DNA of 64,000 nucleotides, from NCBI GenBank assembly GCA_951406725.2, contig OX597814.1, positions 196,788,001-196,852,000 of the forward strand, given 5' to 3'. The notes under the pieces were generated by a model. The model was not told the DNA's origin, ran no database searches, and saw only the letters and a list, made by a program, of their open reading frames with translations. Within the stretch, counting starts at the first letter, position 1, and every line of letters starts with the position of its first letter. Position numbers and translations under genes: made by a program. The stretch comes from Octopus vulgaris. Its lineage: Eukaryota. This document shows, one piece after another, positions 57,483 through 62,726 of the stretch.

Positions 57483-58044
57483 TATATAAGTCCTGCCACC
57501 ACAGCAACTGCTGCCACCTCAACAGTTTGGCAATGTAAACATTGAATGTTATACGTAATGATAGTCTGACCAGGATCTATTAACATAAACTTGTAGTAAA
57601 TTTGTTGAAGATCTAAATAACAAGTTACGGAACGTGAAAGTTCAACAACCGATTAAACTTGATTGTACATACTCCGGATTATGTCATTCAGAGATATGTC
57701 ATACATGATTAAACAGGATATGTCATTTATTATTGAATGAAGTTGTTACCTTTGAGGAACGTTTGTTTGCTATTCATCAATATATGAAACAAATACTGCT
57801 AGAATGACAAAGAAAATGCTGACAAGTTTAACCGTCACACAGCAACGTTGAAAATAGCTGACGAGACAATAATATCATTGGTTGTAAAATTTTGGTCAAA
57901 GATCACGGCAACACAAACATCAACTCGAAAAATACTGATTTCAAATGCTAGCAATATCTCTTTTGATCAGAATTTAAAGAAGACTCACACACGCACGCAT
58001 CTGTTCAGATTCGACGGGAAATAGTTCTTTAGTATTTGATATTT

Positions 58045-58457
58045 CAACGTAAGGGGTATTAGCCATCTGAATGTGGTTAGCCACTGGGGGGGGGGGTTAC
58101 TGATGCTTTTAGCCCCAGGCGATCAACGTCACCAGAAGGACTTTAGACACTATCTCAGTGTCGTTGTGTTGTTTGCAAAGGGAGGTCATCCTCCCTCGAA
58201 GACCCGAGTACTACATACGGACTATAGTTTCGAGGTAATTGCCTCTTGTCAACGCATGGTAAGCACCGGTCTTCGATGAAGGAGTCCCCTTACAAACAAT
58301 ATATAATGTTTTTCACAGTAACCACTGTCACTGATGTAGAAAAACTGTCTGAAAACAATAATAAATCTCTGAACGAGATATAAACAGTGACCGCTCGACA
58401 ACGTAAGGGGTATTAGCCATCTGAATGTTGCTAGCCACTGGGGGGGGGTTACTGACG
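58045..58457 (-). mobile_element. Retrozyme-like element: 354-nt unit plus ~59-nt terminal redundancy
   Basis: CAACGTAAGGGGTATTAGCCATCTGAATGT..TAGCCACTG(n)TTACTGA at 58045 and 58399; central hammerhead; no ORF. Confidence 0.8.
58214..58258 (-). ncRNA. Type I hammerhead ribozyme candidate, U3:A8 variant
   Basis: CATGCG-TTGACAA-GAGG CAATTA CCTC-GAA-ACTATAGT-C-CGTATG; GUC cleavage between 58220 and 58219. Confidence 0.78.
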
Positions 58458-58788
58458 ATAAATTCTAAACAGTATTCAAACACACGCCACAAAAATAACC
58501 GAGCTGTTGACATATAATTAAATGTAATTTCGGCGCTATAAGCTAGGGAAAAGGAGCTTGAAGGATAAACTACACGTTTGTTTTGTCTGCTGCCATCTAC
58601 TGGCAAAGCAAGAGATCTCAAACCAGGAGAGAGATAATATTTTATCAATCCTTATATGAGTTTACAAGCCCAATAGACAAGAGGGCAAATTGCATATCTA
58701 TATACATATGCCAGTGGGTGAATGCCGACACACATACTCTCTATTTTTATTTCAGTCTCTCTCTACCTGATTATGTGCGTCTCTCTCA

Positions 58789-58857
<69 letters not shown>

Positions 58858-58944
58858 ACTCTGTTTGTCTGTCTGTCTGTCTCTTTTTCTACCACCTTGT
58901 GACTTAGAGAAAGAAAAATGAGCTGAAAGATGTTACAGTAAACA

Positions 58945-59310
58945 AGGCACTGCAGTAGCTGTATGGTAAGAAGCTTGATTCACAACCACATAGTTCTGGT
59001 GTGGAACCTTGGGCAAGTGTCATCTACTATAGCCTCGGGCCGACCAAAGCCTTGTGAGTGGATTTGGTAAACGGAAACTGAAAGAAGCTCATCGTATATA
59101 TATGTGTATAAGTGTGTCTGTGTTTGTCCACCCACTATCGCTTAACATCCCCGTAACATAGCGTTGCGGCAAAAGAGATCGATAGAATAAGTACTAGCTT
59201 TACAAAGAATAAGCACAGGGGTCGATTTGTTCGACTAAAGTCGGTGCTCCACCATGGGCGCAGTCAAAATGACTGAAAGAAGTAAATGAATAAACAAGTA
59301 AAAGAGTAAT
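58945..59310 (+). mobile_element. SINE family A, diverged
   Basis: CCTTGGGCAAGTGT..CTACTATAGCCTCGGGCCGACC...GACTGAAAGAAGTAAA. Confidence 0.85.
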
Positions 59311-59504
59311 TAAAAAAATCCGTAAATTTCAACAACTTACAATTCAGTTACTTCTAGTTTCAGGCGTAACCAATCATCTGCACTCAGTAAATATTTCAGT
59401 CGGTAATCTATTTAAAATGTCTATGTGGAAAGAAAGGAACAAATGTTAGAAGTGTTCACTTTTGAAGTGACACCGGTAGGAACACGGAAATGGAAACTAT
59501 CAAT

Positions 59505-60066
59505 ATTCTTTTCTATCCTAAGCACAAGGCCAGAAATTTTAGGGGAGGGGCCCAGTACGCAACTGGTACTTAATTTACCGAACCCGAAAAAATGAAAGGC
59601 GAAGTCTATCTCGGCGGAATTTGAACTCAGAATGTAAAGACAGATGAAATACCTATTTCTTTATTGCCCACATGGGGCTAAACACAGAGGGGACAAACAA
59701 GGACAGACATAGGTATTAAGTCGATAACATCGACCCCAGTGCTTGACTGGTAATAAATTTATCGACCCCGAAAAGATGAAAGGCAAAGTCGACCTCGGCG
59801 GAATTTGAACTCACAACGTAACGGCAGACGAAATACCTATTTCTTTACTACCTACAAGGGTCTAAACACAGATGGGACAAAGAAGGGCAGACAAACGGAT
59901 TAAATCAATTACATCGTCGCCAGTGCGTAACTGGTACTTATTTAATCGACCCCTAAAGGATGAAAGGCAAAGTCGACCTCGTCGGAATTTGAACTCAGAA
60001 CATAAAGACAGACGAAATGCCGCTAATTTTTTCGCCCGGCGTGCTAACGTTCCTGCCAGCTCGCCG
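59505..60066 (-). mobile_element. Tandem trimer of SINE family B
   Basis: Three GAAAGGC.AAGTC..CTCG.CGGAATTTGAACTC cores; junctions at AAATACC 59647 and 59831 (period 184). Confidence 0.88.
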
Positions 60067-60962
60067 ACTCAGAAAAAAAGACTATTATTATACAAGTATG
60101 GAATAAAATGCGTTTATGGAACACTGACGAGGTAGATGCTGCATTAGTGACCTTATAAATCACTTTCAAATTATCATGGATGATATAATTTTTGGAATGA
60201 AATTTCATAATCTATATCACGTGACAAAGTATTCTAGAAGCGGAGAGAATAATACGGCAGCGCGGTAATAAGAACAATTGTGCCACTTTTGAAGATGCTC
60301 GGTAACACAGTTCTCAAGGTGAAGATTTCTAAGGTTTTATAGAATATGATTAAATATATCTCCATGATACAGTGTTTTCTTTTAGCATTTATTGATCTTC
60401 GCTTCTTGTTTATGTACCCACTTATGTATTTTAGTTCCCTATAAAATACATTATTTTTTTCTCTGTCATGTAATGTGTAGTAACACTAATAAAATATCAC
60501 CCTGCACTTTTGCATATTCTTATATCCATAAGGATTCATTCACATTTCCTCTACGTTTCTAGCTGCTTTCTACCAATTTTTTCACCGACATATTTGCATT
60601 GTCTGTATATACGAGTATTCATCGATACAAATGTACAATATTTCTTTACAGTTGGAGAAAATTTAATTTACTTCACTTTCACGGTCACTATGATGTTATT
60701 GTACATGATTTTGTAACTGACTTCATTACATATTCCATTTATATACACGAATCATTTTTCCCCACTTAAAACCAATATAAAATTGCTTTTACTAAAAGTA
60801 TGATAAAGCAGAAAAAAAAGACACCTTATTTCATTCCATTTCCTAATTCTCCATCTAAGATTTGTGTAAACTAACCTAAAGGCGCACACTACAAACCAAG
60901 AAATATGGTATGTAATTTGATATGTGTGTGTGTATTTATATATATTTAAATATATTTAAAGT

Positions 60963-61471
60963 ATTAATAAATCTCCGAACGAGATGTAAACAGTAACCGC
61001 TCGACAACGTAAAGTGTACTAGCCATCCGAATGTGGCTAGCCACTGGGGGTGGGTGTTACTGACGCTTTTAGCCCCAGGAGATCGACGTCTCCAGCTGGG
61101 AGACACAATTTCAGTGCCCATCGAGCGGTTACTGTTTACATCTCGTTTGGAGATTTATTAATGTTTTCAGACAGTTTTTCTAAATCAGTGACTGTGGTTG
61201 CTGGGAAAAACATTAAATAGTATTTGCAAAGGTCTCCTTCATCGAAAACCGGTGTTTACCATGCCTTGACGAGAGGCAATTACCTCGAAACTATAGTCCG
61301 TATGTATCACTTAGGTTTTCGAGGGAGGATGACCTCCCTTTGCAAATATCATAAGGGCACTGAAATTGTGTCTAAGGCCAGCTGGAGACGTCGATCTCCT
61401 GGGGCTAAAAGCGTCAGTAACACCCACCCCCAGTGGCTAGCCACATTCAGATGGCTAGTACACTTTACGTT
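60963..61471 (+). mobile_element. Second retrozyme-like copy: one full unit (61121-61471) preceded by an inverted partial copy (60963-61120)
   Basis: 61121-61471 is homologous to the reverse complement of 58045-58398; 60963-61004 pairs with 61121-61162 and 61006-61119 with 61355-61471. Confidence 0.82.
61260..61304 (+). ncRNA. Type I hammerhead candidate (U3.G8)
   Basis: CATGCc-TTGACGA-GAGG CAATTA CCTC-GAA-ACTATAGT-C-CGTATG; cleavage after 61298. Confidence 0.7.
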
Positions 61472-61524
61472 ATATTTAAAGTGTTTCACATCTAAAGCAG
61501 CGGTCATGCTGGGGCACCACCGTT

Positions 61525-61569
<45 letters not shown>

Positions 61570-61608
61570 TATATATATATCATATATAATATATATATAT
61601 ATATATAT

Positions 61609-61772
61609 GCGCAGGAGTGGCTGTGTGGTAAGTAGCTTGCTAACCAACCACATGGTTCCGGGTTCAGGCCCACTGCGTGGCATCTTGGGCAAATGTCTTC
61701 TGCTATAGCCCCGGGCCGACCAATGCCTTGTGAGTGGATTTGGTAGACGGAAACCGAAAGAAGCTTGTCGTA

Positions 61773-61821
<49 letters not shown>

Positions 61822-62040
61822 TTGTGTGTCTGTGTTTGTCCCCCTAGCATTGCTTGACCACCGATGCTGGTGTGTTTATGTCCCCGTAACTTAGCGGTTC
61901 GGCAAAAGAGACCGATAGAATATGTACTGGGTTTACAAAGAATAAGTCCCGGGGTCGAGTTGCTCGATTAAAGGCGGCGCTCCAGCATGGCCGCAGTCAA
62001 ATGACTGAAACAAGTTAAAGAGTAAAAGAATAAAAGAGTA
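61609..62040 (+). mobile_element. SINE family A, full length
   Basis: GCGCAGGAGTGGCTGTGTGG to the GAGTAAAA tail. Confidence 0.92.
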
Positions 62041-62319
62041 TATGCATATACACATACCTACATATATATGCATATATATACGTGCACATATTGGTACAGG
62101 ACATCAAAAAACGTTGAACACAATGAGAAACGAAAACATAAAAACAAAAGCATAGAAAAAACGAAAAAAATCAAACAGAGAAACGAGACAGCAACATAAA
62201 GAGAAATTCCCCTTCATCAGTTGCGCCTATTTCATCCACTCCGAGTCTCGAAGGCGCCATATATATAGGTACGTTGATGCAAACATAGAAAAATAGAACT
62301 CAAAATGTGAGTATTCTTT

Positions 62320-62726
62320 CTTTCCTTTCTTTTACTGGTTTCAGTCATTTGACTGCGGCCATACTGGAGCACCGCCTTTAGTCGAGCAAATCGACCCCGG
62401 GACTTATTCTTTGTAAGCCCAGTACTTATTCTATCGATCTCTTTTGCCGAACCGCTAAGTGACGGGGACGTAAACACACCAGCATCGGTTGTCAAGCAAT
62501 GCTAGGGGGACAAACACAGACACACAAACACACACACGCATATACATATATACATATATACGACGGGCTTCTTTCAGTTTCCGTCTACCAAATCCACTCA
62601 TAAGGCTTTGGTCGGCCCGAGGCTATAGCAGAAGACACTTGCCCAAGATGCCACGCAGTGGGACTGAACCCGGAACCATGTGGTTGGTAAACAAGCTACT
62701 TACCACACAGCCACTCCTGCGCCTAT
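62320..62726 (-). mobile_element. SINE family A, full length
   Basis: Collinear with 16305-16717. Confidence 0.92.

What the first reader, a model, noticed from the sequence alone, without database searches (positions are those of the whole stretch)
61221..61348. Compensatory base change in the rod extending the hammerhead
Seen: flanks fold back as TATTTGCAAAGG (61221-61232)/CCTTTGCAAATA (61337-61348) and TCGAAAACC (61242-61250)/GGTTTTCGA (61314-61322). In the 58-kb copy the inner helix is TCGAAGACC/GGTCTTCGA (58196-58204, 58268-58276), an A-U to G-C double change. Inference: selection on RNA structure in the source elements, as expected for a rod-like circRNA. It rests on one pair in two copies.
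Basis: partly seen in the sequence, partly recalled or inferred. Interest (0 to 1): 0.72.

Follow-up and report, generated by a model that had tools for sequence, protein, structure and literature searches.

The report
Co-evolving RNA clamp on octopus retrozyme
A 353-base jumping repeat carries a hammerhead ribozyme motif at the tip of a predicted 40-base-pair RNA stem whose two strands have changed together across many subfamilies, so the stem is likely under selection as RNA, probably because it would clamp the ends of the self-cut RNA for joining into a circle.

Summary
Observation confirmed: both helices are exact, and A-U to G-C is real. The copies lie on opposite strands and differ by four double changes, not one. 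They belong to a ~353-nt non-coding hammerhead repeat (2,141 core matches, 0 in control), a metazoan-type retrozyme with Penelope-like insertion ends. Genome-wide the pair is A-U 157, G-C 107, other 15 of 279, with G-U intermediates. It is one subfamily event and not significant alone. The rod as a whole covaries: 10 of 22 pairs change on both sides, G-U outnumbers A-C 420 to 57, and shared changes restore pairs while private ones do not. A strict independent-pairs test was weak (5 better, 2 worse, 3 ties). The unit is a 130-nt rod plus a branched domain, not a full rod. Cleavage, expression and circles are untested. The outer helix lies upstream of the inferred start site, so it would form only in read-through or unit-length RNA. 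The scan noted similar octopus retrozymes, the LINEs that target this helix, and the promoter idea before, on other DNA.

The parts
61121..61471 (+). One full repeat unit (right arm of a two-armed insertion)
   Evidence: 58 of 58 other loci cover it and none cover its unique flanks
60963..61119 (-). Inverted, 5'-truncated left arm ending about 42 nt past the unit end (Penelope-type tail)
61471..61482 (.). Right copy of a 12-bp target-site duplication; its twin abuts the left arm
61220..61349 (+). Predicted rod of about 40 bp that extends hammerhead helix I
   Evidence: covariation
61221..61228 (+). Outer helix 5' strand (pairs with 61341-61348); 5 of 8 pairs change on both sides; upstream of the inferred start site
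61341..61348 (+). Outer helix 3' strand
61242..61250 (+).
61314..61322 (+). Inner helix 3' strand, with T61317
61260..61304 (+). Type I hammerhead: helix I 61260-65/61299-304, core U3 61266 and G8 61271, helix II 61273-76/61283-86, 2-bp helix III with palindromic loop 61292-95, predicted cut after C61298. This copy has a private C.C mismatch at 61265/61299
   Evidence: read from the sequence; pair counts; Rfam has no match
61184..61190 (+). Short motif shared with the upstream region of U2 genes at the same spacing; inferred snRNA-type promoter element, inferred start at A61241
   Evidence: idea taken from earlier notes e1-8672266 and e1-8667023
61238..61257 (+). Target site (duplicated on insertion) of two LINE families in other copies; empty here
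58046..58457 (-). Second copy: 1.17 tandem units, single arm, different subfamily
58169..58299 (-). Rod and hammerhead of the second copy (G58271-C58201 pair, U3-A8 core, predicted cut between 58220 and 58219)

Best explanation
The double change is one fixed difference between subfamilies of a 353-nt hammerhead-bearing repeat, and it is part of a rod whose strands covary along its length, likely because the rod is selected as RNA and would hold together the two ends of the self-cut unit so that a ligase can close it into a circle that Penelope-type enzymes probably copy back into DNA. Steps. Shown: repeat family, tandem and two-armed layout, two fixed 3' ends, covariation of rod and hammerhead, G.U bias on the hammerhead strand. 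Predicted: the fold. Inferred: transcription from an snRNA-type promoter starting at A61241; read-through of tandem units; cleavage after C61298 by two hammerheads sharing a palindromic helix III; release of a unit whose 5' end (61299-61349) pairs with its 3' end (61220-61298); ligation (RtcB in other animals, PMC7229834); copying by a Penelope-like RT. Only units that fold and are processed found new subfamilies, so shared changes keep the rod while changes after insertion do not.
For: Pair states genome-wide: A-U 157, G-C 107, other 15 of 279; among the first 100 listed, 7 are G.U and 1 is A.C, and the G.U copies have intermediate haplotypes. On a sequence-only alignment of 44 copies, 10 of 22 rod pairs change on both sides, 91% of cells pair, and slid controls pair 30-46%. 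Parsimony on 175 copies: internal branches restore pairs 10 times against 1.4 expected (0 of 1,000 nulls) and break them 13-14 times against 20.6; terminal branches match the null (46 against 48.7). Own 5' and 3' arms pair better than swapped arms in 201 of 210 subfamily comparisons (2 worse, 7 ties); a non-partner segment shows nothing (p 0.80). G.U 420 against A.C 57 cells, and 11 against 4 states shared by 5 or more loci. The hammerhead strand folds better in 34 of 34 monomers. A divergent clade of 22 copies has two more double changes in the outer helix. Hammerhead: 7 of 15 pairs change on both sides, the 3-8 core pair is C-G, U-A or U.G in 44 of 44, and loop III is palindromic in 225 of 247 with seven different palindromes. 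Insertions: 182 of 205 3' ends fall at two places about 43 nt apart, and 53 of 72 two-armed insertions use one of each. 176 of 217 arms run through the cut site and 84 exceed one unit, with no pile-up of 5' ends at the cut or start site.
Against: No rod pair is individually significant in the tree-aware test. Strictly independent subfamily pairs: 5 better, 2 worse, 3 ties, p 0.45; two of these pairs held LINE-disrupted arms. Double changes on a single branch are not in excess (2 against 0.8). The structure was taken from the window copies, which favours 'restoring' counts. The 210 comparisons are not independent. The rod also forms in any multimer, so covariation does not prove a circle. The window copy and 109 of 247 cores have U3.G8, and one subfamily has U4C with a C.A base to helix II, which may slow or stop cleavage. 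One double change passes through a C.A state (61225/61344). No autonomous partner sharing sequence was found in 30 GIY-YIG loci. The loci were partly chosen by similarity to the hammerhead, which inflates arm lengths.
Confidence: 0.65

Rival explanations
1. The rod is selected as RNA but only to fold and stabilise the hammerhead (an 'extended hammerhead') or the linear multimer; circles are incidental.
For: Extended stem I with compensatory changes is described for cricket and amphibian satellite hammerheads (PMC2837043 passages). The inner helix would form in the first 82 nt of a primary transcript. Long arms are equally explained by linear multimer templates.
Against: Canonical metazoan helix I is 6 bp (PMC4209133 passage), whereas covariation here reaches pairs 40 nt upstream and 50 nt downstream of the core. 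There is no pile-up of 5' ends at the inferred start (12 of 217 in 17 nt).
Confidence: 0.22
2. The double changes come from DNA-level palindrome repair or template switching during reverse transcription, with no selection on RNA.
For: These insertions fold back often (72 of 133 are two-armed). Double changes in adjacent lineages appear with few intermediates.
Against: The G.U over A.C excess is specific to the hammerhead strand. G.U intermediates exist at this very pair. Bulges persist in all subfamilies. The 3-8 tertiary pair and loop III covary outside any long inverted repeat.
Confidence: 0.06
3. This particular pair is a chance coincidence of two lineage markers on one branch.
For: It is one event, E=0.47, and 61247 covaries equally with unpaired position 61367.
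Against: About a dozen separate compensations lie in the same rod. The intermediate state is mostly G.U (7 against 1).
Confidence: 0.05
4. The unit is the pseudo-LTR of an autonomous Penelope element rather than a free retrozyme.
For: Insertion ends are Penelope-like (PMC8557442 passages). An intact 781-codon Penelope-type frame exists in the genome.
Against: No shared flank or ORF among 58 loci. Pure tandem arrays reach 10 units. No similarity to 30 GIY-YIG loci.
Confidence: 0.02

Closest known systems
Metazoan non-LTR retrozymes (coral, mussel, axolotl; Cervera and de la Pena 2020, PMC7229834; parts 2-4 of 6 read; vertebrate survey 10.64898/2026.07.22.740005, part 1 of 5 and passages)
   Same: Tandem 337-376-nt units, 41-47% G+C, one type I hammerhead per unit with a 2-bp helix III and palindromic loop, predicted high self-pairing, long target duplications, no ORF
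   Different: Not reported for octopus in either text (0 hits); neither uses 'covariation'. Here subfamily-level covariation of a 40-bp rod is measured, the core 3-8 pair has three states, and circles and cleavage are untested
Satellite-DNA hammerheads of cave crickets and newts ('extended hammerhead'; PMC2837043 passages)
   Same: Compensatory changes in hammerhead stems of a tandem repeat; extended stem I; double-hammerhead model
   Different: There the changes are in stems I and II within 68 nt; here they run over 130 nt, and the repeat is dispersed by retrotransposition. That newt satellite 2 uses an snRNA-type promoter is recalled; the paper was not held
Penelope-like element pLTR hammerheads (PMC4209133 passages; PMC8557442 passages)
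   Same: U3-A8 core variant, palindromic helix III, inverted 5'-truncated arms, 30-40-nt tail, microsatellite bias
   Different: No RT/endonuclease ORF attached; full helix I and long rod rather than a minimal hammerhead
Viroid- or HDV-like rod circular RNAs (recalled)
   Same: Size, hammerhead, long imperfect stem
   Different: Rod covers about 37% of the unit; element is genome-encoded; hammerhead seen in one polarity only

Membership tests
Type I hammerhead ribozyme (metazoan canonical form) | Helix I 6 bp, helix II 4 bp, short helix III with palindromic loop, open helix I | tested here: met
   95% of cells pair over 15 pairs, 7 change on both sides; loop palindromic in 225 of 247
Type I hammerhead ribozyme (metazoan canonical form) | Conserved core with a 3-8 base pair and an NUH cut site | tested here: inconclusive
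   C-G 56, U-A 82, U.G 109 of 247; C17 in 238 of 247. The window copy is U3.G8; the youngest subfamily sampled is canonical. Rfam has no match
Type I hammerhead ribozyme (metazoan canonical form) | Self-cleavage | not testable with these tools
   Needs an in vitro assay or raw RNA reads
Metazoan non-LTR retrozyme | Tandem units of 150-450 bp, each with a type I hammerhead | tested here: met
   34 cut-to-cut monomers of 337-376 nt; array of 10 units
Metazoan non-LTR retrozyme | G+C below 50%, non-coding, no LTR-type body | tested here: met
   G+C 0.41-0.47; no shared flank. PBS and PPT were not searched for specifically
Metazoan non-LTR retrozyme | Target-site duplications longer than 4 bp when present | tested here: met
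   12 bp at the window copy; 10-16 bp at many others; often obscured by TA repeats
Metazoan non-LTR retrozyme | Highly self-paired predicted circle | tested here: met
   59-68% paired, z -2.2 to -11.3 in 34 monomers, 12 shuffles each
Metazoan non-LTR retrozyme | Expressed as linear and circular unit-length RNA | not testable with these tools
   Only contigs of runs guessed to be RNA were available
Penelope-like element pLTR | Flanks an RT + GIY-YIG ORF | tested here: not met
Viroid/HDV-like rod circular RNA | Unbranched rod over the whole circle | tested here: not met
   10 of 10 monomers fold as a 130-nt rod plus a multibranched domain
Viroid/HDV-like rod circular RNA | Ribozymes in both polarities | tested here: inconclusive
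   The family pattern hits one strand of tandem arrays; other ribozyme types were checked only through Rfam on the window

The most novel reading that the evidence does not exclude
The subfamily record shows selection on a dedicated end-clamp. The outer helix pairs sequence that lies between the promoter and the start site with sequence downstream of the cut, so it can exist only in read-through or cut-to-cut RNA. Its covariation would be evolutionary evidence that animal retrozymes are selected as closed monomers or circles, while successful subfamilies drift between fast (C3-G8, U3-A8) and weakened (U3.G8, U4C) cores because slower recutting preserves the circle for reverse transcription.
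Probability: 0.35. Interest if true: 0.65.

Novelty: new member of a known kind. Interest (0 to 1): 0.45.

Why it matters
Retrozyme circles are described from folding predictions and three animals; which parts of the fold matter is open. This family offers about 20 natural subfamilies with paired changes, G.U intermediates and three states of a catalytic core pair. That gives ready-made disrupt-and-restore constructs to ask whether the rod serves cleavage, ligation or reverse transcription, and how a circle avoids recutting itself, a question PMC7229834 leaves open.

Tried and rejected
Rfam: no family at gathering score in the window, and no ribozyme match up to E 10 in 57500-62000; the hammerhead was read by hand. 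Direct-repeat and tandem scans were swamped by microsatellites. A Penelope ORF beside the 58-kb copy was rejected (stops in all frames, no other locus shares the flank). The first full-unit clustering was too loose and was discarded. The per-pair covariation test had no significant rod pair; the top scores were lineage markers. The independent-pairs swap test was not significant. Expression: no RNA holder listed. Contigs of four runs guessed to be RNA cover a young unit with 0-1 differences, but no silent-stretch control was obtained, so this is no evidence either way. Partner search: 148 GIY-YIG matches, of which 30 loci were compared with 5 monomers; only AT-rich chance hits. One pattern had the wrong gap and found nothing. 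Literature: no held paper with 'C3U' and 'G8A', so the effect of U3.G8 on rate is not sourced. Searches for hammerhead+Penelope+octopus, retrozyme+covariation and Tx1+target+octopus listed nothing on this family. Supplements were not read; those of PMC7229834 (figures of invertebrate retrozymes) and of the bioRxiv survey (species tables, closed) could include a cephalopod.

Full report
Observation. The 58-kb copy is the same element on the opposite strand, 87% identical over 353 nt. On the hammerhead strand the pair is A61247-U61317 in one copy and G58271-C58201 in the other. Both copies fold into a long stem with a hammerhead at the tip (z -6.7 and -7.0, 0 of 200 shuffles). Aligning the two rods shows four double changes and two shifts to G.U.

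What the element is. Searches of the window's genome (G000, 2.8 Gb; octopus is inferred from its repeats and from labels in earlier notes, no call names it) return many dispersed copies. A relaxed core pattern matches 2,141 times, the reversed control 0 times. Homology stops at the unit's edges in 58 of 58 other loci. Cut-to-cut monomers are 337-376 nt and 41-47% G+C (34 monomers); arrays reach 10 units. Of 133 insertions scored (loci L151-L189 left out as too divergent), 72 are two-armed; 182 of 205 3' ends fall at the unit end or about 43 nt beyond it, and 53 of 72 two-armed insertions use one of each. This matches the inverted arms and 30-40-nt tail described for Penelope-like elements (PMC8557442 passages). 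The window copy has a 12-bp target duplication. An intact Penelope-type frame of 781 codons exists in the genome, but 30 GIY-YIG loci share no sequence with the unit. The features fit metazoan non-LTR retrozymes (PMC7229834, parts 2-4 read).

The flagged pair. Genome-wide, with the rest of the helix fixed, it is A-U in 157, G-C in 107 and something else in 15 of 279. Among the first 100 listed, 50 are A-U, 42 G-C, 7 G.U and 1 A.C, and the G.U copies carry haplotypes between the two subfamilies; several of them are related by duplication, so 7:1 is suggestive only. On the tree it is a single event. In an R-scape-like test of my own (G-test with background correction, 25 tree-based null alignments, 175 copies) it scores E=0.47 over the annotated pairs, and no rod pair passes; the best-scoring column pairs are lineage markers.

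The rod as a whole. Rows used: 248 hammerhead hits, 201 after removing truncated and identical copies, 198 after three more, then 175 in the main set, 22 in a divergent clade analysed apart, and 1 with a deletion dropped. On a MAFFT alignment of 44 of 52 chosen representatives (7 of the divergent clade and 1 truncated copy removed), 10 of 22 rod pairs change on both sides, 5 of 8 in the outer helix; 91% of cells pair against 30-46% for slid partners; 30 of 500 shuffles reach 10 pairs. Changes on branches shared by 3 or more loci restore pairs 10 times (null 1.4, 0 of 1,000) and break them 13-14 times (null 20.6); changes on terminal branches follow the null (46 against 48.7); double changes on one branch are not in excess. 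The structure came from the window copies, which favours restorations toward them, but most events lie in other lineages. Without any alignment, own arms pair better than swapped arms in 201 of 210 comparisons among 21 representatives, and a non-partner segment shows no effect; these comparisons share ancestry. Ten independent pairs gave 5 better, 2 worse, 3 ties (p 0.45), with two pairs spoiled by LINE insertions. G.U outnumbers A.C 420 to 57 in cells and 11 to 4 in shared states, and the hammerhead strand folds better in 34 of 34 monomers, which points to RNA of that strand rather than DNA hairpin repair. The divergent clade adds two double changes in the outer helix and appears to carry one extra base pair there.

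The hammerhead. Seven of 15 pairs change on both sides. The core 3-8 pair is C-G 56, U-A 82, U.G 109 of 247; loop III is palindromic in 225 of 247, as TATA, TGCA, TCGA, CTAG, CGCG, CATG or TA. The inner two bases of a four-base loop cannot pair within one molecule, so their covariation supports the double-hammerhead form described for metazoan motifs (PMC4209133 passages, which also reports U3-A8). The window copy has U3.G8 and a private mismatch at the base of helix I, so it is probably a poor cutter (inference; no rate data found).

Whole unit. Folded as circles, 10 of 10 monomers give the 130-nt rod plus a multibranched domain. 'Rod-like circRNA' overstates it.

Where the RNA may start. Two LINE families insert at one spot, duplicating the equivalent of 61238-61257. 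For family 1, 19 of 30 3' ends run into the repeat, 2 into the target piece alone, 5 into the start of U2 (Rfam), 3 elsewhere, 1 is truncated. For family 2, 28 of 30 5' ends follow the repeat and 2 follow another LINE. I found this before looking it up; earlier notes had it and suggested a promoter. Testing that: a 7-base motif lies 57-61 nt before the ATCG at 61241 in the 10 representatives of the main group where the script placed that site, and a like motif lies 59 nt before U2 genes; LINE copies in U2 genes on two contigs carry a 14-nt leader that resembles one retrozyme subfamily from that ATCG onward. If A61241 is the start, the inner helix forms in the first 82 nt of the transcript, while the 5' strands of the outer helices (61220-61240) are transcribed only by read-through from the unit before. 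Their covariation then reports selection on multimer or cut-to-cut RNA.

Mechanism. Most likely: snRNA-type transcription of tandem units, cleavage by paired hammerheads, a released unit whose two ends are held by the rod, ligation to a circle, and copying by a Penelope-type enzyme from two fixed points. Of 217 arms with a canonical end, 176 cross the cut site and 84 exceed one unit, with no pile-up of 5' ends at the start or cut site (loci were partly selected for holding the hammerhead). That needs a circular or uncut multimeric template and does not choose between them. Cleavage, expression, start site, ligation and the partner enzyme are all untested; the read data gave no usable evidence.

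Verdict. Observation confirmed and extended; interpretation partly supported; a new member of a known kind, with an unusually good natural covariation series. Interest 0.45.

Noticed in passing
L209:695-6215, L211-L240, L241-L270, L272-L279 (target equals window 61238-61257): Two L1/Tx1-type LINE families (endonuclease, RT, zinc knuckle) insert site-specifically into the 5' strand of the inner helix, always in the repeat's orientation; one also inserts at the first bases of U2 genes. Noted earlier by the scan.
   Followed up: partly
L272:2065, L273:2659, L274, L275:2090: LINE copies in U2 genes carry a 14-nt 5' leader resembling a retrozyme subfamily from its ATCG onward, suggesting the LINE moved from the repeat to U2 with the host's transcript start.
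   Followed up: partly
L124-L128, L131, L133, L146: A subfamily of at least 15 copies has U4 changed to C and a C.A mismatch at the base of helix II, yet spread widely; cleavage may be dispensable or supplied in trans.
   Followed up: no
L218, L220, L222, L225, L279: A distant subfamily with a 2-nt loop III and a U at the cut position, still keeping the unit's length and LINE target.
   Followed up: no
L151-L167: The youngest subfamily sampled (near-identical copies, canonical core) has the weakest predicted rod (-29 kcal/mol against -38 to -51 for the others).
   Followed up: no
L289:1-1794, L294: Young Penelope-type element with an intact 781-codon frame, a CxxC linker and a 3' region of tandem repeats with no hammerhead found by my pattern.
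   Followed up: partly
L051/L164 monomers, outside the rod (about window 61130 and 61420): A long-range helix closing the branched domain also shows a double change between subfamilies in the folds.
   Followed up: no
window 58950-59300, 61600-62050, 62320-62720 and 59500-60070: Several copies of abundant SINE-like repeats, in both orientations, and a tandem of about 170-180-nt repeats.
   Followed up: no
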